64,000 nucleotides of DNA. Origin: a virus. Position numbers and translations under genes: made by a program. The DNA is taken from positions 1 through 64,000 of IMG/VR virus record IMGVR_UViG_3300028840_007026, one strand, 5' to 3'. A model generated the notes under the pieces. That model was not told the origin of the DNA and did no database searches. It was given only the letters and a program-made list of their open reading frames with translations. Shown piece by piece: positions 4,897-34,113 of the stretch (its first letter is position 1; every line of letters begins with the position of its first letter).

Positions 4897-4918
4897 GGAA
4901 GTTCCTCTTATGGTGGGA

Positions 4919-4986
4919 TGTGGGGGGAGCAAGGGCTGATGAGAATGGAGGATTTTTTTAGGTTCCCTTTTGGTGCTCCCCCCACA
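4919..4986 (-). terminator. 13-bp inverted repeat downstream of SSB (terminator or processing stem)
   Basis: tgtggggggagca ... tgctccccccaca with a large loop; no clear U-tract. Confidence 0.45.
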
Positions 4987-5003
4987 ATTTGTAAGGAATG
5001 AAG

Positions 5004-24755: not shown

Positions 24756-25250
24756 TTATCGCCTCCTTAATGTTCTTTTTTTCTCTGTGGGGCGACGTTT
24801 TAATGTTCTCGTTTTTGGTAAGAGTACATCAAATGCCTTTGTTAAGGGGGATTTATTTTCTTTTCCATCTCTTCTTTTTAAAACCCTTTTTTGATTCCCC
24901 GGATCGGCTATTTCTTCTTTTCTCAGTAGCCTCCTCGGGGTTACAATAGGGACCAAATCGAGAAAATACCTCTCGATGATTGGTCTGATTTCTTTATCAA
25001 ATTGTCTACAGTTTTTACACAACTCCCATGATAGTAAGTTTTTCTCATTCCTCCTTCGTGCTATACATTGGTTGTAATTGAGTCTGCAACCAAAGTTATC
25101 ACAGTTGAAAATCGTTGGATTGAAGTACTTGCATTGCTTACTGTCAGCTTGTACTTTTTTCTTTGACGCGATGCACCGCTTAGTGTAGCCGTTGGATTCC
25201 CTTTTTACTACATCAGACCGGCACCACCAATGGCAGTTGGAACATGACAT
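24756..25250 (-). CDS. Cys-rich putative Zn-binding protein with a basic repeated tail
   Basis: Many Cys; three xLKRR-type repeats; AGGAG RBS. Confidence 0.65.
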   Translation of the reverse strand: MSCSNCHWWCRSDVVKRESNGYTKRCIASKKKVQADSKQCKYFNPTIFNCDNFGCRLNYNQCIARRRNEKNLLSWELCKNCRQFDKEIRPIIERYFLDLVPIVTPRRLLRKEEIADPGNQKRVLKRRDGKENKSPLTKAFDVLLPKTRTLKRRPTEKKRTLRRR

Positions 25251-25299
25251 TCTCTTCTCCTTTTTAAAAGGAAAAGCTCCGAATGACTCGGAGCTCTTG

Positions 25300-25328
25300 A
25301 GTATACCAAATTGTGCTATAAAAGTAAA
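25300..25328 (-). promoter_or_regulatory. Sigma70-type promoter for the replication operon
   Basis: TTTACT-17 nt-TATACT with an extended TG; followed by a gagctccga...tcggagct hairpin and RBS. Confidence 0.65.
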
Positions 25329-25336
25329 GAGGCGCT

Positions 25337-26461
25337 CTATTCGGTGCTTTCCTGGTTTTCAATGATATCGTAAAAGTCATTTTCGGAAGACTTTTGCCTG
25401 ATGATCATAACCGGAAAACCATCTTTGACCAGTTTCCTTATTACTGCTTTCAATTTTGCAGTGGTATCCCTTCGACTGCAATTGAATTGCTTTTCAACTG
25501 CTGAACACAATTCACCGTAGTAAACACCTTCGCTCATCATTTCAGAGATGAGTGCGTGAATGCTTTTCTTCCGGTAGCCGAAGCGGTTCAGACCGTAGCG
25601 GTTGTTTTCTCCGCGACGTTTCAGAACCCTTTCTTCCTTTTGCGAAGTTTCTTCCTTCTGTGGAGTTGGAGTTCTCCGTTTGAGAATTCTCGGAGCAGGA
25701 GTATTCGGATCAACTTTCATGTCAAGGTCAATGCCGTGACACTTGTTAGCTGCCTTGAATGCCGCTGCACAAGCGGATACGAAATCCTTCGGTGGAGTTT
25801 CGAATTTGTTCTCCCATCGGATTTTCATATTGTTGAGAAATTTGATTGCTGTCGGAACTACTTTTGCAGCAACACGATTGAATACTGTCGTTTTGGTTGG
25901 GATGTGAATGATACGTCCGAATTCATCACCGTCAGTTACATAGTAGGAATAGGAAAATTGCTTCCCTTCTACCGGACCGACTTCGTTCGACTTGGTACCT
26001 TCCTTCAGGAACTCTTTGTAGTTCTCTTCGGATAATTTCTTTTTGCTCACTTCTTTGGTACCAGTGGAATCCAGTTCATCTACCCGTTTGATAACGTTTT
26101 TAATCTTGCCAGACAGTTCATCCAGCTTTTTGATAATCAGGTCTGCGATAAACGGGTCCAGGTCCTGTTTTGGAGAGCCTTCAGGAGCCTCTTCAGGTTC
26201 CCTTTCGGGAGGCCTTTGGTTATGGTTGTCGGCTTCCGGTTTGCTTTCAGGATCTGCTTTCCCAGCTTGAGCTCTTGCCAATATTGCTCGCTTATGGTCA
26301 GCATACCGTTGACACTTCGAACAGGTGATTTCTTCCGGACTGGCTTCGATTGGTTTGAGTAATCTTCTACCGTCGCATCTTGCAACAACCAAACCATCCA
26401 GCATTTTACTGTAATGGATTACTTCGCCTTTGGTTGTTTTACCATACTTTGCATCAGCCAT
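25337..26461 (-). CDS. Multidomain hypothetical protein (N-terminal Zn motif, C-terminal HTH-like)
   Basis: H..C..CSKC; C-terminal GYRKKSIHALISEMMSEG; AGGAGG RBS before MADAKY. Confidence 0.7.
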   Translation of the reverse strand: MADAKYGKTTKGEVIHYSKMLDGLVVARCDGRRLLKPIEASPEEITCSKCQRYADHKRAILARAQAGKADPESKPEADNHNQRPPEREPEEAPEGSPKQDLDPFIADLIIKKLDELSGKIKNVIKRVDELDSTGTKEVSKKKLSEENYKEFLKEGTKSNEVGPVEGKQFSYSYYVTDGDEFGRIIHIPTKTTVFNRVAAKVVPTAIKFLNNMKIRWENKFETPPKDFVSACAAAFKAANKCHGIDLDMKVDPNTPAPRILKRRTPTPQKEETSQKEERVLKRRGENNRYGLNRFGYRKKSIHALISEMMSEGVYYGELCSAVEKQFNCSRRDTTAKLKAVIRKLVKDGFPVMIIRQKSSENDFYDIIENQESTE

Positions 26462-26567
26462 TTTTAATCCTCCTTTGAGTGGGTTGAGTAAATACGTCAG
26501 TGTTAACAATATAACACGTTTCGCATTAATTTAGTACGCCAAACTATTTTGGAATACTAAATTAATG

Positions 26568-26585
26568 GGGGAGCCGAAGCTCCCC
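26568..26585 (-). terminator. UUCG hairpin after the last early gene, followed by a 13-bp inverted repeat (26524-26567)
   Basis: GGGAGC TTCG GCTCCC; cattaatttagta...tactaaattaatg. Confidence 0.5.
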
Positions 26586-26592
26586 AATTGGG

Positions 26593-26823
26593 TTAAACAT
26601 AGGGACTTCTCAACGGGACGTGAAGTCGAGACTTGCTACGCTTGGACGGATCCCTGCGAACTTCTCGAGCAGTTGCCATATAATGCTCTGTGATATCTCT
26701 CCAATGGTGGAAACAAAAAAGATGTTTTTGGGTCGGTTTCCGATCTGCGACGTTTTTCTTAATGGGTTTTCCACAGATCTCACATCGGCGATTGCTCATT
26801 TCGGTGTACGGAACCTTTTTCAT
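26593..26823 (-). CDS. Small Zn-finger protein
   Basis: CEICGKP...CFHH; AGGAG RBS. Confidence 0.65.
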   Translation of the reverse strand: MKKVPYTEMSNRRCEICGKPIKKNVADRKPTQKHLFCFHHWRDITEHYMATAREVRRDPSKRSKSRLHVPLRSPYV

Positions 26824-27167
26824 TTCTTCTCCTTAATTAGATATGACATTGAAAGTACTGCTTCCTTAATCGCTTTATGGCCGAGTTCGTAAAAGTAATA
26901 GAGTACAACGAACGTCTCATACGAACCTTGTTGAAGTGGAATATAATCGCCAATTAAAGAACGGAGAATGTCGGGATTGTCATATGCATCATCTGCTGCA
27001 CAATCCCTTTCAGAACCGTAACCACGATGGTTGAAATCCTCATCTACTGCTACCATATCGTAAACTGCTGACTGGAGCCAGTTGATGTAGTTCTCAACAC
27101 CATCTTTGATTTGTTCTTCTGTGAGCTGCTTCATGGTTTCATAGTTTTGCAATTGTAGATCTACCAT
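26820..27167 (-). CDS. Hypothetical early protein (start MVDLQL; the ORF-track extension overlaps the ribozyme)
   Basis: AGGAGG RBS upstream of ATG 27167. Confidence 0.7.
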   Translation of the reverse strand: MVDLQLQNYETMKQLTEEQIKDGVENYINWLQSAVYDMVAVDEDFNHRGYGSERDCAADDAYDNPDILRSLIGDYIPLQQGSYETFVVLYYFYELGHKAIKEAVLSMSYLIKEKK

Positions 27168-27190
27168 AATAATCCTCCTATAAGTAGTAA

Positions 27191-27259
27191 AGGTTGCCTC
27201 ATCAGTAATAGGGTTCCTATCCCTATCAGACGAGGGGAGCAATTTCCCCTCGTTTCGGC
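27191..27259 (-). ncRNA. Type II hammerhead ribozyme HH1
   Basis: GCC-GAAA-CGAGGGGA(loop)UCCCCUC-GUC/UGAUAGGG(AUAGGAA)CCCUAUUA-CUGAUGA-GGC; pseudoknot AGG/CCU; cut predicted at 27229/27228. Confidence 0.92.
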
Positions 27260-27441
27260 TACAATTTTTTCATGATCCAATCAGCATGAGTATATTGGTA
27301 ATAATGCATCATGTGGACCAATTGGTTGTGAATCTCCATAACTCCGGCTGGACAATGATCAGGGCTTTTCCATGTTGCTTCAATTTCTTCTATCTTTCCC
27401 ATAAAGGTTTTTCTTTCTACCAGCATTATTCTTTCGTTCAT
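27259..27441 (-). CDS. Hypothetical early protein (~60 aa)
   Basis: GAGGAG RBS; the stop codon overlaps HH1 stem II. Confidence 0.6.
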   Translation of the reverse strand: MNERIMLVERKTFMGKIEEIEATWKSPDHCPAGVMEIHNQLVHMMHYYQYTHADWIMKKL

Positions 27442-27445
27442 TTTT

Positions 27446-27778
27446 TTACTCCTCATTTATAGAAGGTAGGTCTCTAATACTGTCCCACAAATTTCTCTTT
27501 TCCAGTTCGATAGCATTATGAATAATTCTTTCATAACACTTGATGAAACGTTTGAACTTGGAAAGATCACCGTTTTCCCATGCGTAGACGATATGCATCG
27601 AAATTCCAACGAGCATCAATAACTGCTCATGTACTGTCGATTGAGTCTTTGCAATCTTGAGATGATGGTAGCAAAGATCGTTTGGAATGTCTGTATCTTC
27701 TTTCCATTTTCTTTTTTCACAAACTTTTTCTTTAACCGGGACTTTCCTTGCCTTCCTTTTTGGTTTTTCTACTTTCAT
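27446..27778 (-). CDS. Hypothetical early protein (start MKVEKP)
   Basis: AGGAGG RBS downstream of HH2. Confidence 0.7.
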   Translation of the reverse strand: MKVEKPKRKARKVPVKEKVCEKRKWKEDTDIPNDLCYHHLKIAKTQSTVHEQLLMLVGISMHIVYAWENGDLSKFKRFIKCYERIIHNAIELEKRNLWDSIRDLPSINEE

Positions 27779-27805
27779 AATAAATCCTCCTGTTAGTTGG
27801 TAGTT

Positions 27806-27870
27806 ATGAGCAAATCTCATCAGGCATGGTAGCTCATTTCCATGCGACTCCCCGAAGGGAGTTTCGAATT
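27806..27870 (-). ncRNA. Type II hammerhead ribozyme HH2
   Basis: UC-GAAA-CUCCC(UUCG)GGGA-GUC/GCAUGG(AAAUGAGCUA)CCAUGC-CUGAUGA-GA; 6-bp pseudoknot AUGAGC/GCUCAU; cut at 27846/27845. Confidence 0.92.
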
Positions 27871-27961
27871 AAAGGTTAAACATGAGAATAGTAAAAATGT
27901 AGATGACAACGAGAATAAGAAGACCAGCGAAGATCTCAAGAATAATTTCCAGATCCTTCAT
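27869..27961 (-). CDS. 30-aa hydrophobic membrane peptide (absent from ORF track)
   Basis: MKDLEIILEIFAGLLILVVIYIFTILMFNL; ATGA overlap with the upstream gene; stop abuts HH2. Confidence 0.6.
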   Translation of the reverse strand: MKDLEIILEIFAGLLILVVIYIFTILMFNL

Positions 27962-28266
27962 GTTGTTTCCCTTTCGTTAGAAATTTTGGCAATTTCCCTG
28001 AACGTGATTGGGTTCACATACATCTTGCAAAGTGGGGAGTATTTGTCTTTCGTGCCCTTTAAAGCAATTTTAAGGCATGATTGACAGTAATTCAAATCGT
28101 CGTAATATTGAAACTGCTTCACAAATGTTTTCTCAACCGGTTGGACGTAATAACATCCACAAGCGATTGCACATCCGCATAAGGAATACTCTTCTCCAGT
28201 TTCTTCATCCGTTTCGAACAAATGAATCTTTCGGGTCAACCAATACTTCATTTGATGGTATAACAT
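27958..28266 (-). CDS. Hypothetical early protein with Cys/His motif
   Basis: H..SLCG..CQSC; AGGAGG RBS. Confidence 0.65.
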   Translation of the reverse strand: MLYHQMKYWLTRKIHLFETDEETGEEYSLCGCAIACGCYYVQPVEKTFVKQFQYYDDLNYCQSCLKIALKGTKDKYSPLCKMYVNPITFREIAKISNERETT

Positions 28267-28575
28267 TTAGCCTCCTATCACTCGACCGTAAGTAGTAATT
28301 AGTTCCCTTCCCACCGGAGTTTCAGTTGAAATCATAGAATCCTTGGAAAGGCAGTAAATACATTCCGTTTTTTTCGGTAGACAAATCCTCAATGCGGAAT
28401 AGACTACTGCTATTGTGACGGTTATGACTGGGATGATGATAGTAAACCAGAACATGATAAACGAGGCTGGTACAACAACAAACCAAGCGAGAATTTCGGT
28501 CCATATATCACCGAATCGCTCGTTCCTTGGTTTCCCGATTACTCCACAATTCTTGCAAATTAGTTCCTGTGACAT
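28267..28575 (-). CDS. Membrane protein with a split Zn ribbon flanking hydrophobic segments
   Basis: CKNC - hydrophobic stretch - CIYC. Confidence 0.7.
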   Translation of the reverse strand: MSQELICKNCGVIGKPRNERFGDIWTEILAWFVVVPASFIMFWFTIIIPVITVTIAVVYSALRICLPKKTECIYCLSKDSMISTETPVGRELITTYGRVIGG

Positions 28576-28603
28576 GATAAATCCTCCTGTTAAGTAGTAA
28601 TAA

Positions 28604-28672
28604 AGGGTACCTCATCAGTGCGTAGTTCCCTAATCTACGCAGACGGGAGAAAAAAATTTCTCCCGTTTCGGC
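28604..28672 (-). ncRNA. Type II hammerhead ribozyme HH3
   Basis: GCC-GAAA-CGGGAGAAA...UUUCUCCC-GUC/UGCGUAG(AUUAGGGAA)CUACGCA-CUGAUGA-GGU; pseudoknot AGGG/CCCU; cut at 28642/28641. Confidence 0.92.
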
Positions 28673-29542
28673 TTAGACGTCCAGTTTACGTTTTACCTTG
28701 AAGTCAGGAACAGCTTTAATTTGTTTTGCGATCTTCTCCATCTTTTTCGAAACTTCTCCACGGAAGTCCTCGCTGTTCCTAAGTTTGTCGGCAGAGGTTT
28801 TCTTCATTTGGATGCGAAGGGATCTCATTATGGATTTCATTTTCTTCCCATCAATATTGTCTTTCCAGAGATCATCCCACTTGCCAAGAAACTTATCAAG
28901 GGCATTAATCGTTCCAGCGTTGATCTTGTCATTGTCGCACTGTTCTTTTAATTTCTCAATGCGAGCGAGCAACGTGCTGCCAATGATATTGACAGCCATC
29001 ATCTCCATCTCATTTGCCATGGATTGAAACTTCTCCCTTTCCCTTTTGTACATCGAAGCAGTTAGTATACCTGCATCTTTATCGGGAAGTTGAAACTGGA
29101 AAAATCTCCAAAAGAAATCATGTTTTGCTCTGATTGAATCTGCCGAAGGGTAGTTTGTTTCATCGTAGTACTCGGGGTACTTGGTTTTAAAGCTACGCTT
29201 TAATGACCCCATTTTCTTAACAAGCTTATCCGTGAGTTCAGCGTATTCGGCTTTGAGTTCAGTAAACACCTTGTCCAAATACTCAATCTTGTGTTTGGGT
29301 ACCCAGAACACTCCGTCGACAGGAAACGGCATGGAACTATTGAGAAGTTCCCTTTTTGTTGCCCGTTTTACTGCGAGAAGATCGTCGATGATAGTTCTAT
29401 CATCTACCAGATCCTGGACACCGCGAACGATTTCAGACGGAACATCAGGTCCCAGCTTGTCTTTACTCAGTTTGGTGTAAGCTCCCCAACGGCTAACTTT
29501 CAATTGACAAAGGACGCCTTCATTTAATTGTTCGACTTTCAT
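28673..29542 (-). CDS. Helical early protein, DUF3150-like
   Basis: LKVSRW, PFPVDGVFWVP, YPSADSIRAKHDF pattern; family call from memory. Confidence 0.55.
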   Translation of the reverse strand: MKVEQLNEGVLCQLKVSRWGAYTKLSKDKLGPDVPSEIVRGVQDLVDDRTIIDDLLAVKRATKRELLNSSMPFPVDGVFWVPKHKIEYLDKVFTELKAEYAELTDKLVKKMGSLKRSFKTKYPEYYDETNYPSADSIRAKHDFFWRFFQFQLPDKDAGILTASMYKREREKFQSMANEMEMMAVNIIGSTLLARIEKLKEQCDNDKINAGTINALDKFLGKWDDLWKDNIDGKKMKSIMRSLRIQMKKTSADKLRNSEDFRGEVSKKMEKIAKQIKAVPDFKVKRKLDV

Positions 29543-29567
29543 AAATCCTCCTATAAGTTAGTAGTAA

Positions 29568-29628
29568 AAGTTGCCTCATCAGATAACAAGTTCTTATCTT
29601 GCTATGACCGCCCGAAGGCGGTTTCGGC
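29568..29628 (-). ncRNA. Type II hammerhead ribozyme HH4
   Basis: GCC-GAAA-CCGCC(UUCG)GGCG-GUC/AUAGCAAG(AUAAGAA)CUUGUUAU-CUGAUGA-GGC; pseudoknot AAG/CUU; cut at 29606/29605. Confidence 0.92.
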
Positions 29629-30035
29629 TAATATTCCAATGTAATCAGAATATCCCCATTGGTGTCCTTCTCAGTAAATACACCCTCAATTTCCGTGTAG
29701 TCAATGTTCTTCAATACTACACTGGAATTGTACTTTTGGAGCGTCAACCCGAGCAAATCCATTGTTGAACATTCCTCACCGTATGGTCCTATTACTGTAC
29801 GATCGCTACCAAAGTGATCATACCTAATACTACCGTCTGGACTTATTGCTAACGGGTATGCCCAGCCTTTGAGATGGACCTCTGCGATTGCATTGTTAAC
29901 ACTATTATGACCATAGTGTTTAACTGCAAAGGCTTTCCCACCCAAGTACTTTACTCGATGACCGAGTTCTTTACAGATGGTACAGAAAGTTTCAACGTCA
30001 GTCACTTTTTGTGCATAGCGAGTTGTATGGCTCAT
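29628..30035 (-). CDS. DUF1257/Ycf35-like protein
   Basis: MSHTT..KVTD, GWAYP, YDHFG, LQKY, GDILITL. Confidence 0.7.
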   Translation of the reverse strand: MSHTTRYAQKVTDVETFCTICKELGHRVKYLGGKAFAVKHYGHNSVNNAIAEVHLKGWAYPLAISPDGSIRYDHFGSDRTVIGPYGEECSTMDLLGLTLQKYNSSVVLKNIDYTEIEGVFTEKDTNGDILITLEY

Positions 30036-30082
30036 TTTTATTTCCTTTTTAGTTTGGTAGTAAAATGTTTTTTGAGAATTAA

Positions 30083-30295
30083 TCATCCGCACCATTCACT
30101 CGGAAGACCATTTGAGATTGTTTCTTTGTTTTCCCAGTAGCTATCCTTATAGTTACGCTGCTGGTCATTACCACCGAACAACTTGTCAAGGAATGCGGTT
30201 GCTTCTTCACAGCTACCGCCTTTAAAGTTGAATGCTTCGACACGTACTGAACCATTTTTCCCTAAAGTGATTTTTACTTTACGTTTTTCTTCCAT
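30083..30295 (-). CDS. DUF2997-like protein
   Basis: ITLGKNGSVRVEAFNFKGGSCEEATAFL. Confidence 0.8.
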   Translation of the reverse strand: MEEKRKVKITLGKNGSVRVEAFNFKGGSCEEATAFLDKLFGGNDQQRNYKDSYWENKETISNGLPSEWCG

Positions 30296-30323
30296 TTTAT
30301 CCTCCTATAAGTTAATTGTGTTA

Positions 30324-30389
30324 TGGCTTGCCTCATCAGTGCTACCGTAGCCAGTGGTAGCAGACGGGCCTGAATCGGCCCGTTTCGGC
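30324..30389 (-). ncRNA. Type II hammerhead ribozyme HH5
   Basis: GCC-GAAA-CGGGCC(GAUUCA)GGCCC-GUC/UGCUACC(ACUGGCUAC)GGUAGCA-CUGAUGA-GGC; pseudoknot UGGCU/AGCCA; cut at 30363/30362. Confidence 0.92.
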
Positions 30390-30392
30390 GAG

Positions 30393-31805
30393 TTATTTAT
30401 CGATGCGACGTCTTCCCGGCCGTTTAACTGTTCGCGTTTCCATAACGGTTTCAGCGGGTATCGTTCGGCCTTTTGCCCAATCCCTTAGTCTTGCAATGCT
30501 TTCCCCTGCCGTTTTTGCTTGTGGAATAATGGCTTTCGAAGCCTCAATAAGCGATACTCCTCTCATGTCGGCAATGTGAACCAATGCTTCGATTTCAGCG
30601 CCGGAGAAGTCAACAAGTGAAGGTGTTTTTTGTTTTGGGAGATTCGCATTTACCCTGTAGTGTTCCAGAATAGAACTTGCAACTTTTTGGGAAGGGTAGT
30701 CGATGAAAAAGGGAGATGAATCCCAGCGACCAGGACGCAAATACTCGTTTGGAATTCCCTCAAAGCTATTTGCTGTCCCAACAATGTAAACCCCTTTCGG
30801 ACGGTTTTGCAGAAAGTCTAACCACCGACCAGTCGCACGTCGTGTTGTACCACTATCGAGCGAACCATCGCTATTACTACCAGCGAACTGCTTTTCGAAT
30901 TCGTCGATGAGAACTACACATTCACCAATTGAACAAATGATTTCGATCGCAGTATTGATATTCTGGTCGGTTTCCCCTTGAAACTTAGAAAATAACGAAC
31001 CCATATTGATGGAAAGACCGAATTTCTTAGTCTCACCGACAATTGCTTTCATTAGGGTAGTCTTACAACATCCCGGAGGGCCGATCGTAATAATGCCTTT
31101 TGCTTTTGGATTATCGATCGTCGAAAGGATAAACTGCTTTATGTTATCGTATCCAACCACATCCTTGAACGTAAGATTTCCATCGAGAACATCGAGAAAA
31201 CCGGTTTTCCGTATTGCTTGAGCCTTGTGCTCGTTGATCGTCTCAATACTAAAACCTTTTCCGTTCGACTCAACTAATGAAAGCGCGAGAACGTTATCAA
31301 GTTCACTTCGACTCAACCCCTTACAACTGTTAGCTACTTTCGTTATTTCTTCGGGTGAAAGGTTTTTGTCTGCCATTTCTTGAATCGCGGTAGTAATTTC
31401 AGGACCGTTAGGAAGTGGAAGATCAATAAGAACATACTCTTTTTCCAGCTCCACCGGTAGTTTTTTTGAATGGGACACGCAGATAATTGCTTTCCCCTGA
31501 GATGACCAGAGTTTAGCATTGTCTTTTATGTGCTGAATGACCTGAGGCTTTTCAGCAAACCAGTGCCAATTGTAAAGAAAAATAACCGTTAATTCTTCGG
31601 CCTGATCCAGAACCTGAAGCGGTTCTCTCGGGTCGTTTCCTTTTGCCAAGGACCATTCCCTGACGGAGTACTTCCCGCCATCTTTACGTTCAAAGTTTTT
31701 AATGGTTTCATACACCTTTTCCCTTACGAAGTCATGCTCAGAAGTTCGGAGCCAAAACGTTGAAAAACCTGCACGTAGATAATTAATGATCTTGTCAGCT
31801 TTCAT
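30393..31805 (-). CDS. Ycf46-like AAA+ ATPase
   Basis: LPVELEK, GPPGCCKT, IDEFEK, TAN, LRPGRWD, FSGAEIE, LRDWAKGR. Confidence 0.85.
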   Translation of the reverse strand: MKADKIINYLRAGFSTFWLRTSEHDFVREKVYETIKNFERKDGGKYSVREWSLAKGNDPREPLQVLDQAEELTVIFLYNWHWFAEKPQVIQHIKDNAKLWSSQGKAIICVSHSKKLPVELEKEYVLIDLPLPNGPEITTAIQEMADKNLSPEEITKVANSCKGLSRSELDNVLALSLVESNGKGFSIETINEHKAQAIRKTGFLDVLDGNLTFKDVVGYDNIKQFILSTIDNPKAKGIITIGPPGCCKTTLMKAIVGETKKFGLSINMGSLFSKFQGETDQNINTAIEIICSIGECVVLIDEFEKQFAGSNSDGSLDSGTTRRATGRWLDFLQNRPKGVYIVGTANSFEGIPNEYLRPGRWDSSPFFIDYPSQKVASSILEHYRVNANLPKQKTPSLVDFSGAEIEALVHIADMRGVSLIEASKAIIPQAKTAGESIARLRDWAKGRTIPAETVMETRTVKRPGRRRIDK

Positions 31806-31830
31806 AAATCCTCCTATAAGTTAGTAGTAA

Positions 31831-31897
31831 AGGTTACCTCATCAGTACCCAAGTTCCTATCTTAGGTAAACGGGAGAAGTATTTCTCCCGTTTCGGC
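31831..31897 (-). ncRNA. Type II hammerhead ribozyme HH6 (GUU cleavage triplet)
   Basis: GCC-GAAA-CGGGAGAA(AUAC)UUCUCCC-GUU/UACCUAAG(AUAGGAA)CUUGGGUA-CUGAUGA-GGU; pseudoknot AGG/CCU; cut at 31869/31868. Confidence 0.88.
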
Positions 31898-32221
31898 TTA
31901 TGCTGTTTCAACTCTGTATCTTGGATCGTATTCCCAGTCACTACTGTCTGGGAACAACCTCAAGAATATTTCGTAAGCTTTGTAACCGGAAGTTCTCCGG
32001 TTGTATTCTTTTTTGATTTCTTTCATGCTACGAATACCATACTCGGAAAACAGCCTTTCGAATTCGTTTTTTACTCCCTTGAAATAACCTCTGTACATAT
32101 CCTGGAAACACTCTCCTGGTGCACCCCACAGAGACATATCATTATCCATTGCTTCTATGTCTTCCGCCATTTGATAGAATTTACTCAGGATCATTCCAAA
32201 TGATTTTTTCCAATCTTTCAT
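31898..32221 (-). CDS. Hypothetical early protein (start MKDWKK)
   Basis: AGGAGG RBS downstream of HH7; stop abuts HH6. Confidence 0.7.
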   Translation of the reverse strand: MKDWKKSFGMILSKFYQMAEDIEAMDNDMSLWGAPGECFQDMYRGYFKGVKNEFERLFSEYGIRSMKEIKKEYNRRTSGYKAYEIFLRLFPDSSDWEYDPRYRVETA

Positions 32222-32241
32222 AATTCCTCCTTTGTGGTTGT

Positions 32242-32304
32242 TGACTTGTCTCATCAGCGGTCAGGTTGTCACCCTGTACCGGACTCCCCAAAGGGAGTTT
32301 CGAC
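32242..32304 (-). ncRNA. Type II hammerhead ribozyme HH7
   Basis: GUC-GAAA-CUCCC(UUUG)GGGA-GUC/CGGU(A)CAGG(GUGACAA)CCUGACCG-CUGAUGA-GAC; stem II covaries (GUC/GAC); pseudoknot UGAC/GUCA; cut at 32282/32281. Confidence 0.92.
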
Positions 32305-32516
32305 TATGCTACTTGAAGATCGAGCGAAGCGTAATCAACACGAGCCCAAAACTCGTCCCATGATTCGTCTTCGTTTAACGGTTGAGAGTAGTAAACACAT
32401 TTCCCGTTTTCTTCAATTTCAACATGCCACTCGTTCCACTTCTCAAGGTATCTCAGGATAAAGGTTTGTCCGTCGATAATTTCTTTTTCTTTGATTGAGC
32501 GATCGATCTTTTTCAT
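32304..32516 (-). CDS. First early gene, small acidic protein (70 aa)
   Basis: TAAGGAGG RBS; the stop overlaps HH7 stem II. Confidence 0.7.
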   Translation of the reverse strand: MKKIDRSIKEKEIIDGQTFILRYLEKWNEWHVEIEENGKCVYYSQPLNEDESWDEFWARVDYASLDLQVA

Positions 32517-33150
32517 AATGCCTCCTTAATAAGATTCATATATTTGCCTGTCCCAAACACTTTAAAGCCTTCAAACGGCTCCTGAGGGCTCCACTCAAAG
32601 GCTTTAAGGTGGAGGCGAATATAAATACTCGCCTCCGGGTAGGCTCAACTTAAAAGGAGGAGGATATATTGCATAGCTGCGACAGTACTGAGAATATTCC
32701 TGTCGGTTTTCCAAATGATTCCGACTTGGTTTTACTTAACTTATTCAAACCAATTGTTCCTTGTCGGCACGTTTTTTTTCAAATGGGTTTCACTATGGCT
32801 TGCCAGCACATATTCAGCATAGTTTCAACCGGTGGCCGGTGGTTTTCTATGCTGCCTGGTATCAGAAGTTCGAGATTTTTTAATCTTGCGTTATCAACGG
32901 AATGTTTTTTTCTACCATATCCGAATCCGGATTTTTATCCGGCCGTTTTTTTGTTTCCTCGGAAACGTTTTCGGTCATGCAATTTTACTCACATGGAAAA
33001 TGCGAACTTAGGTAGTAGTTCGATCCCGTTTTTTCAACCAGTATTTTAAAAGAAAAAAGTCGCAATATGTTTTGTTTTATCAACAGCCTTTCGGTCATTG
33101 AATAGCTGAACGCGACCAGTGCAGCGGGTGAACATGTTTTAAAAGAACAT
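32517..33150 (-). ncRNA. Candidate long structured leader / ncRNA of the early operon
   Basis: No credible sense ORF; many hairpins with A-rich linkers; long-range atattgc/gcaatat pair. Confidence 0.45.
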
Positions 33151-33205
33151 GTTCTTGATATCACAATAAATTAAAAAACACAACATCTTTTTTTATTTTT
33201 TTTGA
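33143..33205 (-). promoter_or_regulatory. Putative early promoter with UP element and a palindromic operator
   Basis: A-tracts; TTGTGT-17 nt-TATCAA with TG extension; 14-bp palindrome AAGAACATGTTCTT at 33143-33156. Confidence 0.5.
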
Positions 33206-33304
33206 ATAGGTGATCGTACGGAAAATAACACAATTCCAGCCATTTATATTTGATGTCAGGTTACCCCTAAAAATATTTTTTTGCACAAGTTAACATAATC
33301 CCTA

Positions 33305-33332
33305 TTGAATTAAGCCTGAAAATAGCTATATT
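33305..33332 (+). promoter_or_regulatory. Putative rightward promoter for packaging/structural genes
   Basis: TTGAAT-16 nt-TATATT. Confidence 0.4.
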
Positions 33333-33576
33333 ACAGCCAACCTACCTGGTAGCGGGTAACCCCTATCTGGCCTATGTTTTACTACCCCTTGAGACCAGTT
33401 AGAGCACAATACTATTTCGGCCTGAGAGAGACTATGTGTCAGTTCGCCAAGGGGGTTTTCGGCAAATCCTCATTTCGGTGATAAGGCAAATAAGGAAGAT
33501 AGATATTGCCTTATGGAAAGGAGTGTTTTAATGGGTCACTTTATAGTAGTAAACCTTTAGATGTGAGAACTTGGAT

Positions 33577-34113
33577 ATGGCAAGACCGGGAAGACAACTA
33601 AGGAGAAGGCATACAGGGAGACAAAGAAACTTTACTCCACGAGTAAGGACTTTGTTGTATGCTGCAATTCGAGCAGATCTACCATATAAAAGGGCTTGTG
33701 AGATCTGTGGAGTCAACTACCGGAATTTCAATTATTGGATGCAAAGGGGAAAGACGGATCCAGAACATAGTATATATACACAGTTCAGAAGATATATCCG
33801 TAGGATTGAGGCGAGAAAAGAAATCCAACTCCTTGAAGTAATTGATAAGGTAGCAGTCGGGAATTACAAGATAAGGGAAATGGAGATATCCTTTTCTCCT
33901 GATAAGGGACGCTCCTGGAAGACGAAGACGAAGATAATCAGGCCTGACTGGAAGGCAGCTGCATGGCGATTGGAGAGAAAATACAGAGATGACTATGGAC
34001 AGTTTGATCCGACGGTGATTACTTCCAAGTCCCCTGAAGAAATAGCTCAGGAGATAAGGGATGCAACACTTGAATTGGAAAGATCTGTTCCAACGGAGGA
34101 GGAAATAGCATGA
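33577..34113 (+). CDS. terS: Terminase small subunit
   Basis: HTH (ACEICGVNYRNFNYW) and DWKAAAWRLERKY; coupled to TerL. Confidence 0.75.
   Translation: MARPGRQLRRRHTGRQRNFTPRVRTLLYAAIRADLPYKRACEICGVNYRNFNYWMQRGKTDPEHSIYTQFRRYIRRIEARKEIQLLEVIDKVAVGNYKIREMEISFSPDKGRSWKTKTKIIRPDWKAAAWRLERKYRDDYGQFDPTVITSKSPEEIAQEIRDATLELERSVPTEEEIA

What the first reader, a model, noticed from the sequence alone, without database searches (positions are those of the whole stretch)
27191..32304. Covarying loop I / 3'-tail pseudoknot shows each ribozyme is independently maintained
Seen: in every copy loop I is complementary to the bases 1-3 nt after stem II, and both partners change together: AGG/CCU (HH1, HH6), AUGAGC/GCUCAU (HH2), AGGG/CCCU (HH3), AAG/CUU (HH4), UGGCU/AGCCA (HH5), UGAC/GUCA (HH7). 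Stem II also covaries (GCC/GGY versus GUC/GAC). Established: loop I-stem II tertiary contacts are needed for fast cleavage at physiological Mg. Inference: these are selected, active ribozymes, not decaying repeats. Differences in pseudoknot length and the GUU triplet of HH6 may tune cleavage rate per gene.
Basis: partly seen in the sequence, partly recalled or inferred. Interest (0 to 1): 0.75.

Follow-up and report, generated by a model that had tools for sequence, protein, structure and literature searches.

The report
Seven hammerhead ribozymes between phage genes
Seven intact self-cutting hammerhead RNAs sit between the early genes of an uncultured phage, each held in shape by its own matching loop-and-tail contact; this is a dense, well-preserved example of an arrangement known since 2011, not a new kind of element.

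Summary
The minus strand of 27191-32304 holds exactly seven type II hammerhead ribozymes. No others occur in the 81-kb phage genome.

The pairing exceeds chance. Only 27 of 20000 tail shuffles and 2 of 5040 tail permutations reach the observed 28 bp.

Two orthologues in relatives carry compensatory changes:
- HH4, in the pseudoknot (AAG/CUU versus GAG/CUC).
- HH6, in stem I.

This is the published type II architecture, including the pseudoknot, its disrupt-and-restore kinetics and ribozyme clusters flanking phage genes (Perreault 2011). It is therefore a new member of a known kind. This scan has also noted similar arrays on other DNA.

What I add:
- Each unit is a compact stop codon, ribozyme, 60-67-nt leader, SD and ATG module. 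These modules fill all seven 82-97-nt gaps of the early operon.
- Relatives carry 3-14 such units.
- The junction before the AAA ATPase gene holds a hammerhead, a canonical pistol, a permuted pistol or an unidentified hairpin element, depending on the phage.

Cleavage, and any tuning of its rate, remain untested.

The parts
27191..27259 (-). HH1, type II hammerhead. Stem II GCC/GGC. Cleavage after GUC, between 27229 and 27228. Pseudoknot: loop AGG 27218-27216 with tail CCU 27193-27191. The upstream stop codon UAG (27261-27259) overlaps stem II by 1 nt. Next ATG at 27167.
   Evidence: (58.5 bits)
27806..27868 (-). HH2. Stem II is only UC/GA plus a U.U. Cleavage between 27846 and 27845. 6-bp pseudoknot: AUGAGC 27837-27832 with GCUCAU 27811-27806, one nt further from the core than in the others. 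Follows the UAA of a 30-aa hydrophobic ORF (27961-27869). Next ATG at 27778.
   Evidence: (32.8 bits)
28604..28672 (-). HH3. Stem II GCC/GGU. Cleavage between 28642 and 28641. Pseudoknot: AGGG 28631-28628 with CCCU 28607-28604. Next ATG at 28575.
   Evidence: (44.5 bits)
29568..29628 (-). HH4. Stem II GCC/GGC. Cleavage between 29606 and 29605. Pseudoknot: AAG 29595-29593 with CUU 29570-29568. Precedes the DUF3150 gene (ATG 29542). Its orthologue L021:2512 has GAG/CUC.
   Evidence: (31.7 bits Rfam)
30324..30389 (-). HH5. Stem II GCC/GGC. Cleavage between 30363 and 30362. Pseudoknot: UGGCU 30353-30349 with AGCCA 30328-30324. Lies 3 nt after the stop codon of the AAA ATPase gene. Next ATG at 30295.
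   Evidence: (38.8 bits, above Rfam cut-off)
31831..31897 (-). HH6. Stem II GCC/GGU. GUU cleavage triplet at 31871-31869, cleavage between 31869 and 31868. Pseudoknot: AGG 31858-31856 with CCU 31833-31831. Precedes the AAA ATPase gene (ATG 31805). Its orthologue L023:1296 has GUC and a 4-bp pseudoknot.
   Evidence: (33.1 bits)
32242..32304 (-). HH7. Stem II GUC/GAC. Stem I has one bulged A. Cleavage between 32282 and 32281. Pseudoknot: UGAC 32271-32268 with GUCA 32245-32242. Follows the first gene of the operon (32516-32304). Next ATG at 32221.
   Evidence: (28.6 bits)
25337..32516 (-). Leftward early operon that the ribozymes punctuate, in order:
- 70-aa ORF, then HH7
- 107-aa ORF, then HH6
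- AAA ATPase (30393-31805), then HH5
- 70-aa ORF and a ~135-aa ORF, then HH4
- DUF3150 protein (28673-29542), then HH3
- two 102-aa ORFs and a 30-aa ORF, then HH2
- 110-aa and 60-aa ORFs, then HH1
- 115-aa and 76-aa ORFs
- terminator-like hairpin, then a 374-aa ORF
Each ribozyme is followed by an A/U/C-rich leader and an AGGAGG SD.
26568..26585 (-). The only minus-strand terminator-like hairpin in 25000-33800 (GGGGAGC UUCG GCUCCCC, then an A/U-rich tail). It lies after the last ribozyme-led block.

Best explanation
These are seven functional type II hammerhead ribozymes built into the leftward early operon of an uncultured 81-kb tailed phage.

Each one is part of a compact junction module. The stop codon of the upstream gene lies 0-3 nt from stem II, or overlaps it by 1 nt. 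The ribozyme follows, then a G-poor leader, an AGGAGG SD and the ATG. The ATG is 60-67 nt after the cleavage site.

Inferred mechanism. As the polycistronic RNA is made, each ribozyme folds into stem III and stem I hairpins. A 2-3-bp stem II closes the core, and the loop I/3'-tail pseudoknot of 3-6 bp holds stems I and II parallel. The RNA then cuts itself after GUC (GUU in HH6). This would turn one transcript into a promoter-proximal piece, six internal pieces of about 413, 1506, 757, 964, 796 and 617 nt, and a last piece of about 660 nt if transcription stops at the hairpin at 26568-26585 (arithmetic). Each piece carries 1-3 tightly coupled genes.

Every upstream product ends in the stem III hairpin with a 2',3'-cyclic phosphate. 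Every downstream product begins with a 5'-OH, the stem I hairpin and the same kind of leader. Each gene block therefore gets context-independent ends and a standard translation start. This works like T7's RNase III sites or the synthetic RiboJ insulator.

Shown here: the motifs, their folds, their placement, covariation and conservation. Inferred: cleavage in vivo and its effect on mRNA stability and translation.
For: Motif and fold.
- All 7 have the complete catalytic core and type II topology.
- Stems III and I are the minimum-energy fold in 7 of 7. Stem II is part of that fold in 3 of 7. z-scores run from -1.7 to -4.9.
- The clade model R1, built without window sequences, finds 7 of 7 and nothing else in the window.

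Covariation across 45 distinct clade hammerheads.
- Stem I is 98.3% paired, with 8 of 8 pairs showing double changes.
- Stem III is 97.5% paired, with 7 of 8.
- Stem II is 86.4% paired.
- The whole-structure covariation score is 0.753, against 0.208 shuffled (0 of 500).
- The pseudoknot was not part of the model's structure. It is 78.4% paired, against 68.7 shuffled (0 of 500), and is best among seven registers.
- My own loop/tail test on 48 distinct combinations gives 166 bp, against 123.3 +/- 5.9 permuted (0 of 5000).

Orthologous compensatory changes in HH4 and HH6.

Placement. All seven gaps of 82-97 nt hold a ribozyme. The other junctions are -4, 0, -4, 4 and 47 nt. Cleavage-to-ATG distance is 60-67 nt in 7 of 7.

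Clade. Matches to the Rfam type II model in 7 of 10 related virus records number 3, 5, 7, 8, 9, 10 and 14.

Same junction, other elements. Before the AAA gene, other relatives carry a canonical pistol (L045, 68 bits) or a pistol-like unit with its first hairpin moved to the 3' side (G010). This argues that RNA processing is what the junction needs.

Literature.
- Type II pseudoknot disruption lowers kobs 20- to more than 100-fold at 0.5 mM Mg, and restoration rescues it. Clustered prophage hammerheads cleave in vitro, and one set cleaves in E. coli (PMC3088659; passages read).
- Three type II hammerheads near phage-like genes self-cleave in Desulfovibrio vulgaris (PMC8782182; abstract and passages).
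Against: - There is no experimental or transcript evidence for this phage.
- Rfam's own model passes its cut-off for only 1 of 7.
- Three pseudoknots (HH1, HH4, HH6) are only 3 bp. The 2011 paper says a majority of type II examples have 4 or more. In its test construct, shortening 6 bp to 4 cost about 20-fold. These three could therefore be slow.
- HH6 also has GUU, found in 1 of 67 clade hammerheads.
- In the column-based count, 'pairs with a change on both sides' for the pseudoknot is not above shuffles (3 versus 2.7; 366 of 500).
- Three related virus records have no hammerhead (two complete, one a 35% fragment), so the ribozyme is not indispensable to the operon.
- The biological role of bacterial and phage self-cleaving ribozymes is described as largely elusive (review PMC6765202; passages read). 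The insulation and stability role is therefore inference.
Confidence: 0.8

Rival explanations
1. The stop-ribozyme-leader-SD modules are above all recombination joints. In this reading, repeated about 90-nt units let phages swap, permute and acquire early-gene cassettes, much like the repeated promoter/stem-loop units described for T4-type hyperplastic regions (recalled, not checked). Self-cleavage would be secondary or merely tolerated.
For: - Blocks bounded by ribozymes occur in two orders. The window, G003, L021 and L023 have AAA | 70-aa + ~125-aa genes | DUF3150. G001, G002, G004, G005, G006, G009 and G010 have the 70-aa + ~125-aa pair before AAA.
- Most genes in the ribozyme-bounded slots upstream have no homologue in the other records.
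- Ribozyme subtype does not follow the slot at larger distances. In G002, G007 and G008 the copies are 89-94% identical within a genome, as expected from gene conversion or recent spread.
Against: - No recombination breakpoint was mapped to a ribozyme at nucleotide level.
- In the window the copies are only 47-82% identical, which is poor substrate for homologous recombination.
- Strict conservation of the catalytic core and compensatory changes in stems and pseudoknot show selection on the RNA fold, which a pure DNA joint would not need.
- The two readings are not exclusive.
Confidence: 0.25
2. The pieces between two ribozymes are joined end to end. This would happen by the reverse hammerhead reaction or by an RtcB-type ligase, giving circular or spliced mRNAs. 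The 3' half of one unit and the 5' half of the next could together rebuild a complete hammerhead.
For: - Loop I and the tail both lie in the downstream product.
- Five of seven units share the GCC/GGY stem II, so hybrid hammerheads between neighbouring units are sterically possible. This is inference.
- Cleavage leaves the 5'-OH and 2',3'-cP ends that such ligation needs (established chemistry; PMC8782182 abstract).
Against: - Perreault et al. state that they looked for spliced or circular products of clustered hammerheads and could not detect either (passage read).
- A stem II of 2-3 bp should let the products part quickly.
- There are no data for this phage.
Confidence: 0.05
3. Some or all copies are inactive relics or plain structural repeats. 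They would act as hairpins for stability or termination, and the core motifs persist only because the repeats are young.
For: - Rfam scores are below the cut-off for 6 of 7.
- Pseudoknots are only 3 bp in HH1, HH4 and HH6, and HH6 has GUU.
Against: - The copies are old: mean identity is 65%. Yet all 7 keep every core position and all helices.
- Orthologues at 65-68% AAA protein identity keep them through compensatory changes.
- 0 of 500 shuffles reach the observed covariation.
Confidence: 0.05

Closest known systems
Type II hammerhead ribozyme with loop I/3'-tail pseudoknot (Rfam RF02276; Perreault et al. 2011, PMC3088659)
   Same: - Same permuted order: stem II strand, GAAA, stem III hairpin, NUH, stem I hairpin, CUGANGA, stem II strand.
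- Same very short stem II.
- Same pseudoknot between loop I and the nucleotides just after stem II.
   Different: - Only HH5 reaches Rfam's gathering score.
- Three of the seven pseudoknots are 3 bp, shorter than the '4 or more' said to hold for the majority.
- One copy uses GUU.
Clustered hammerheads flanking genes in prophages (Perreault et al. 2011, Figure 3 legend and text; triple arrays of Clostridium scindens, Azorhizobium caulinodans, Agrobacterium tumefaciens)
   Same: - Several ribozymes within a few kb, each between genes of a phage operon.
- Variable genes between them.
- The same proposed role: processing a long transcript into gene-length mRNAs.
   Different: - Seven units here and up to 14 in a relative. 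The tested published arrays have three. I could not see the figure or the supplements, so the largest published array is unknown to me.
- Here the phage record has terminal repeats and is not a prophage.
- Every unit abuts a stop codon and carries a standard leader and SD.
RNase III processing sites in the phage T7 early transcript; synthetic RiboJ ribozyme insulator (both recalled, not checked in a call)
   Same: They work alike. A polycistronic early RNA is cut between genes. The products keep a terminal hairpin and translate independently of upstream context.
   Different: - T7 uses a host protein enzyme on double-stranded hairpins, whereas here the RNA would cut itself.
- RiboJ is engineered from a satellite RNA hammerhead.
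- Neither is a family that this element could belong to.
Pistol ribozymes in ribozyme-rich phage neighbourhoods (Weinberg et al. 2015, as summarised in PMC10085705 and PMC6765202)
   Same: Relatives of this phage carry a canonical pistol (L045) or a permuted pistol-like unit (G010) at the very junction where the window has HH6.
   Different: It is a different ribozyme class. None is present in the window.

Membership tests
Type II hammerhead ribozyme (RF02276) | Conserved catalytic core: CUGANGA, GAAA, G10.1-C11.1 and A15.1-U16.1 | tested here: met
   7 of 7 have CUGAUGA followed by G, and C followed by GAAA, with U at 16.1.
Type II hammerhead ribozyme (RF02276) | Type II topology: stems I and III closed by loops, stem II open and short | tested here: met
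   Stems III and I are minimum-energy hairpins in 7 of 7. Stem II is 2-3 bp formed by the two ends.
Type II hammerhead ribozyme (RF02276) | NUH cleavage triplet at the stem III/stem I junction | tested here: met
   GUC in 6 copies and GUU in 1 (HH6). The rule that H may be A, C or U is recalled.
Type II hammerhead ribozyme (RF02276) | Pseudoknot between loop I and the nucleotides immediately 3' of stem II | tested here: met
   7 of 7, with lengths 3, 6, 4, 3, 5, 3 and 4 bp. 27 of 20000 shuffles and 2 of 5040 permutations reach the observed sum. The definition comes from passages of PMC3088659.
Type II hammerhead ribozyme (RF02276) | Score at or above Rfam's gathering threshold (37 bits) | tested here: inconclusive
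   1 of 7 passes (38.8 bits). Three score 28.6-33.1 bits and three are not reported at E<=10. A clade-specific model scores all 7 at 32.8-58.5 bits.
Type II hammerhead ribozyme (RF02276) | Site-specific self-cleavage giving 2',3'-cyclic phosphate and 5'-OH ends | not testable with these tools
Clustered hammerheads flanking phage genes (Perreault 2011) | Several hammerheads within a few kb, in intergenic positions of one phage transcription unit | tested here: met
   Seven units in 5.1 kb, all on the minus strand and in all seven gaps of 82-97 nt. The phage context rests on PolIII alpha, DnaB, primase, tape measure and terminal repeats.

The most novel reading that the evidence does not exclude
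In this phage clade the gap between early genes is a standard slot, made of a stop codon, a self-processing RNA, a leader and an SD. The slot's occupant is interchangeable. The same orthologous junction before the AAA ATPase gene holds one of the following, depending on the phage:
- a type II hammerhead
- a canonical pistol
- a circularly permuted pistol
- a two-hairpin element ending in UGGCAAUCA
- a 60-nt irregular hairpin

If so, two things follow. First, the modules are natural cistron insulators, and they also serve as joints for shuffling early-gene cassettes. Second, the two unidentified occupants are processing elements too, possibly new self-cleaving classes.
Probability: 0.3. Interest if true: 0.65.

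Novelty: new member of a known kind. Interest (0 to 1): 0.4.

Why it matters
What bacterial and phage self-cleaving ribozymes are for is still called largely elusive (PMC6765202; passages read).

This array does not answer that question, but it offers a compact test system:
- seven diverged yet intact units in one operon
- fixed spacing to the next start codon
- natural compensatory variants in orthologues
- close relatives in which the same junction holds a different ribozyme class or an unidentified element

That makes several things directly testable in a heterologous host:
- whether the ribozymes insulate and stabilise each cistron
- whether pseudoknot strength sets the cleavage rate
- whether the unidentified neighbours cleave themselves

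As a structural observation, the covarying pseudoknot itself is textbook for this ribozyme type.

Tried and rejected
- No RNA holder listed. The look-up of sequencing runs returned 7 runs, none on record as RNA. I therefore did not use read laying, and expression could not be examined.
- No DNA match in the phage collection by blastn. The best protein match to a cultured phage is 28.9% identity (AAA ATPase of mycobacteriophages), so no cultured relative was found.
- Exact-pattern scans for the HH1/HH4/HH6 core plus leader found nothing in viral or metagenome contigs. The window's own record may be left out of these scans.
- The pistol-like core pattern of G010 occurs only in G010 itself.
- The idea that a weak stem II is compensated by a long pseudoknot, suggested by HH2, is not supported: rho -0.08, p 0.58, n=49 distinct hammerheads.
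- My first regex scan found only 3 of 7 because of lazy matching. I replaced it with the exhaustive scan.
- A relaxed-core scan gave one extra hit inside the AAA gene (31709-31594, core CCGAAGA, loops of about 40 nt). I dropped it as spurious before the counts.
- The MAFFT alignment A1 of the seven copies is not structurally consistent, so I did not use it for a model.
- One search was my own bracket error, with the pseudoknot one column out of register. Its '+1' slide equals the correct.
- In alignment A5, HH2 and the G003/G004 hammerheads (which have an extra nucleotide after the core) sit one column out of register. They count as unpaired, which lowers the pseudoknot figures.
- The promoter and terminator scan gave no convincing promoter (22 found versus 15.9 expected).
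- PHROGs and Pfam name only 2 of the 10 array proteins I submitted.
- I did not identify the G006-type and G009-type elements. Rfam gives only microRNA-like hairpin matches far below threshold.
- Supplementary files and figures of Perreault 2011 could not be seen. They may list larger arrays or relatives of this phage.
- The statement that I found no published natural permuted pistol rests on one search (26 papers, 20 listed, judged from titles and abstract starts only) and on the introduction of PMC10085705.

Full report
WHAT IS THERE

The window is the first 64 kb of an 81,355-bp virus record with direct terminal repeats, rated 100% complete.
- Replication genes lie on the minus strand up to about 32.5 kb: a PolIII alpha-UDG fusion, a DnaB-like helicase, a Toprim primase, a clamp loader and radical SAM enzymes.
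- Virion genes lie on the plus strand from about 33.5 kb, including a tape measure and tail proteins.
- About 1 kb of non-coding DNA separates the two sets.

The stretch 27191-32304 is the start of the leftward operon. Its named products are an AAA ATPase (30393-31805) and a DUF3150 protein (28673-29542). The other eight ORFs I submitted have no significant family match.

THE SEVEN RIBOZYMES

Seven CTGATGA words on the minus strand each lie 45-58 nt downstream of a CGAAAC.

All seven read the same way: a stem II strand, GAAA, a stem III hairpin, GUC (GUU in HH6), a stem I hairpin, CUGAUGA, the other stem II strand, then a tail. That is the type II hammerhead order.

Three independent searches agree on the count.
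- My descriptor scan of the whole genome on both strands finds these seven and no more.
- Rfam's Hammerhead_II model passes its cut-off only for HH5 (38.8 bits against 37). It gives 33.1, 31.7 and 28.6 bits for HH6, HH4 and HH7, and reports nothing for HH1-3 at E<=10.
- I built a covariance model from 11 hammerheads of three related phages, with none from the window. It finds exactly the seven in the 64-kb window, at 32.8-58.5 bits.

Stems III and I are the minimum-energy structure in 7 of 7. Stem II is included in that structure in 3 of 7. z-scores are -4.9, -2.2, -3.7, -2.5, -2.5, -3.8 and -1.7.

THE PSEUDOKNOT

The summed Watson-Crick run is 28 bp.
- Shuffled tails give 18.96 +/- 2.39, and 27 of 20000 reach 28.
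- Dealing the seven tails among the seven loops reaches 28 in 2 of 5040 permutations: the identity and the HH1/HH6 swap.

HH4 differs from HH1 and HH6 by G to A in the loop and C to U in the tail at paired positions.

Stem II covaries as stated: GCC/GGC or GGU, against GUC/GAC.

There are five distinct pseudoknot types, not seven.

IS IT MAINTAINED?

The seven copies are 47-82% identical to one another, with a mean of 65%. They are therefore old, yet all keep the core and all helices.

Using the AAA ATPase as a handle I fetched two sets of relatives:
- 10 related loci from virus contigs (42-65% identity)
- 30 loci from metagenome contigs (40-68% identity, some being the same phages again)

Counts in the 10 virus records at E<=0.01 with RF02276:
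- Seven hold 3, 5, 7, 8, 9, 10 and 14 type II hammerheads.
- Three hold none. Two of these are complete records and one is a 35% fragment.

On the model-based alignment of 49 hits (45 distinct rows):
- Stem I is paired in 98.3% of cells, with 8 of 8 pairs showing double changes.
- Stem III is paired in 97.5%, with 7 of 8.
- Stem II is paired in 86.4%.
- Whole-structure covariation is 0.753, against 0.208 shuffled (0 of 500).
This alignment is fitted to the stems, so the stem figures lean towards the structure.

The pseudoknot columns were not in the model. Its four core pairs give these figures:
- 78.4% of cells are paired, against 68.7 +/- 2.4 shuffled (0 of 500).
- Covariation is 0.357, against 0.211 shuffled (0 of 500).
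- The six slid registers give 17.6-55.1% paired.
- The count of pairs with a double change (3 against 2.7) is not above shuffles (366 of 500).

My own loop/tail test covers 67 hammerheads with 48 distinct combinations. It gives 166 bp, against 123.3 +/- 5.9 (0 of 5000).

The best evidence comes from orthologues. L021 (68% AAA identity) and L023 (65%) share the window's gene order: AAA, ribozyme, the 70-aa and ~125-aa genes, ribozyme, DUF3150.
- The L021 unit before DUF3150 is 81% identical to HH4. Its stem I is identical, but its loop is AUGAGAA where HH4 has AUAAGAA, and its tail is CUC where HH4 has CUU. That is an A-U to G-C change in the pseudoknot.
- The L023 unit before the AAA gene is 83% identical to HH6. 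It carries a C-G to G-C swap in stem I, has GUC where HH6 has GUU, and has a 4-bp pseudoknot (UAGG/CCUA).
- The slot of HH5 holds a different subtype (AAGC/GCUU) in both relatives.

Some relatives have copies that are nearly identical within a genome: 0.89-0.94 in G002, G007 and G008. The units therefore evolve partly as a multi-copy family and not strictly one by one.

ANATOMY OF THE JUNCTION

- In 7 of 7, the stop codon of the upstream ORF lies 0-3 nt from stem II or overlaps it by one base. For HH2 the upstream ORF is an unlisted 30-aa hydrophobic ORF.
- In 7 of 7, a strong SD (AGGAGG) and an ATG follow. The ATG is 60-67 nt after the cleavage site and 20-28 nt after the pseudoknot tail.
- All seven gaps of 82-97 nt carry a ribozyme. 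The remaining junctions in the array are -4, 0, -4, 4 and 47 nt.
- The 131-nt gap after the last block carries the only terminator-like hairpin on this strand.

The ribozymes thus delimit translationally coupled blocks of one to three genes.

HOW IT MOST LIKELY WORKS

I infer co-transcriptional self-cleavage at each unit.
- Upstream pieces would end in the stem III hairpin with a cyclic phosphate.
- Downstream pieces would begin with a 5'-OH, the stem I hairpin and a uniform leader.
- This would separate the blocks physically and give each the same translation start.
- It parallels RNase III processing of the T7 early RNA and the synthetic RiboJ insulator (both recalled).

Published passages that I read support parts of this:
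- Pseudoknot disruption in a type II hammerhead lowers kobs 20- to more than 100-fold at 0.5 mM Mg, and compensation restores it.
- Triple prophage arrays cleave in vitro, and one cleaves in E. coli.
- The authors proposed processing into gene-length mRNAs and could not detect circular or spliced products (PMC3088659).
- Three type II hammerheads near phage-like genes cleave in vivo in Desulfovibrio vulgaris (PMC8782182).

Nothing was measured for this phage.

TUNING

- GUU is 1 of 67 in the clade, and the HH6 orthologue has GUC. The window's HH6 is therefore a derived and probably weaker version.
- Three 3-bp pseudoknots may be slow, judging by the published deletion series. That series used a construct with a one-pair stem II.
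- Stem II length and pseudoknot length do not trade off.

WHAT ELSE THE COMPARISON SHOWED

The junction just before the AAA gene is occupied by different elements in different relatives.
- A type II hammerhead in the window, in 7 of the 10 related virus records and in several further metagenome loci. L032 is one of these: R1 missed its hammerhead at E<=0.01, but Rfam scored it 60.3 bits.
- A canonical pistol in L045 (68 bits).
- In G010, a pistol-like unit whose pseudoknot hairpin lies 3' instead of 5'. There are six copies. Rfam Pistol scores only 29.1 and 27.1 bits. The loop GCAAGA pairs with UCUUGU, and the helices covary among copies. An earlier report of this scan reached the same reading.
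- Two hairpins followed by UGGCAAUCA in G006, L025 and L022.
- A 60-nt irregular hairpin in G009, with two compensatory changes in its basal helix.
- Nothing in L046.

Hammerhead-bearing and hammerhead-free relatives are equally close to the window (65-68% AAA identity).

Blocks bounded by these units occur in two orders across the clade, and most slot genes are unique to one record. This fits interchangeable 'separator' modules and possibly cassette shuffling. No breakpoint was mapped.

COMPARISON WITH WHAT IS KNOWN, AND VERDICT

The element meets every sequence-level criterion of type II hammerheads and of the clustered phage arrangement published in 2011.
- The covarying pseudoknot is the defining tertiary contact of that type.
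- This scan has also recorded similar ribozyme arrays on other phage DNA.

It is therefore a new member of a known kind. It is real, intact and unusually tidy. I rate it of moderate interest as a test system, not as a discovery of a new mechanism.

Noticed in passing
L013 4491-4576, 4811-4893, 5887-5975, 7428-7516, 8508-8590, 9443-9530 (record G010): Six pistol-like units sit right after stop codons, at the slots where the window has hammerheads. The pseudoknot-forming hairpin (loop GCAAGA, pairing with UCUUGU) lies 3' of the GU site, not 5' as in canonical pistols. Rfam Pistol scores only 29.1 and 27.1 bits (cut-off 34.5). An earlier report of this scan (e1-5894886) reads them the same way.
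   Followed up: partly
L012 2816-2926, 3233-3340, 4313-4422, 5569-5679, 5890-6000, 7428-7538, 7708-7812 (record G009): Seven copies of an about 110-nt unit at the same kind of slot. Each has a 60-nt irregular hairpin with strictly conserved internal loops, and the basal helix shows two compensatory changes in one copy. A leader follows in which CUCCU could pair with the SD. Possibly an RNase III-type site or an unknown processing RNA.
   Followed up: partly
L005 957-1070, 2945-3075, 3869-3982, 5044-5158, 7429-7540; L022 about 4900-5000: In the relatives closest by AAA protein (65-66%) the slots hold about 105-125-nt units. Each has two hairpins followed by a conserved UGGCAAUCA(A/C) just before the SD, and some begin with CCGCGAACUGGGAC. 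There is no meaningful Rfam match, and no look-alike in the scan's notes.
   Followed up: partly
L045 654-722: A canonical pistol ribozyme (68 bits) lies directly before the AAA ATPase gene of a 44%-identical relative. This is the junction that holds HH6 in the window.
   Followed up: no
L008 6923-6994, L009 4782-4834, L007 2691-2743, L015 2062-2123: Four clade hammerheads have CCGAUGA instead of CUGAUGA, a U-to-C change at a normally conserved core position, with intact stems and pseudoknot. Seventeen others, all in G003 and G004, carry an extra nucleotide between the core and stem II.
   Followed up: no
window 32517-33570: About 1 kb without a convincing ORF lies between the divergent early and virion operons. 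On the minus strand it contains four CCGAAA words and several A-runs. No Rfam match at E<=10.
   Followed up: no
window 27869-27961 (minus strand): An unlisted 30-aa hydrophobic ORF (MKDLEIILEIFAGLLILVVIYIFTILMFNL) overlaps the stop codon of the previous gene by 4 nt and ends right at HH2.
   Followed up: partly
window 26490-26523 (minus strand): After the terminator-like hairpin there is a GCGAAAC followed by a 6-bp hairpin. It looks like the first half of a hammerhead but lacks stem I and CUGAUGA. It may be a remnant or chance.
   Followed up: no
window 27806-27823 (minus strand): In HH2 the tail GCUCAU can also pair with AUGAG of the catalytic core. This small hairpin is part of the minimum-energy fold and would compete with the pseudoknot.
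   Followed up: no
window leaders 27168-27190, 29543-29567, 30296-30323, 31806-31830 (minus strand): The leaders after the ribozymes are G-poor and share UACUAACUUAUAGGAGG or UUAACUUAUAGGAGG. This resembles the T7 gene 10 'epsilon' translational enhancer as I recall it; I did not check this in any call.
   Followed up: no
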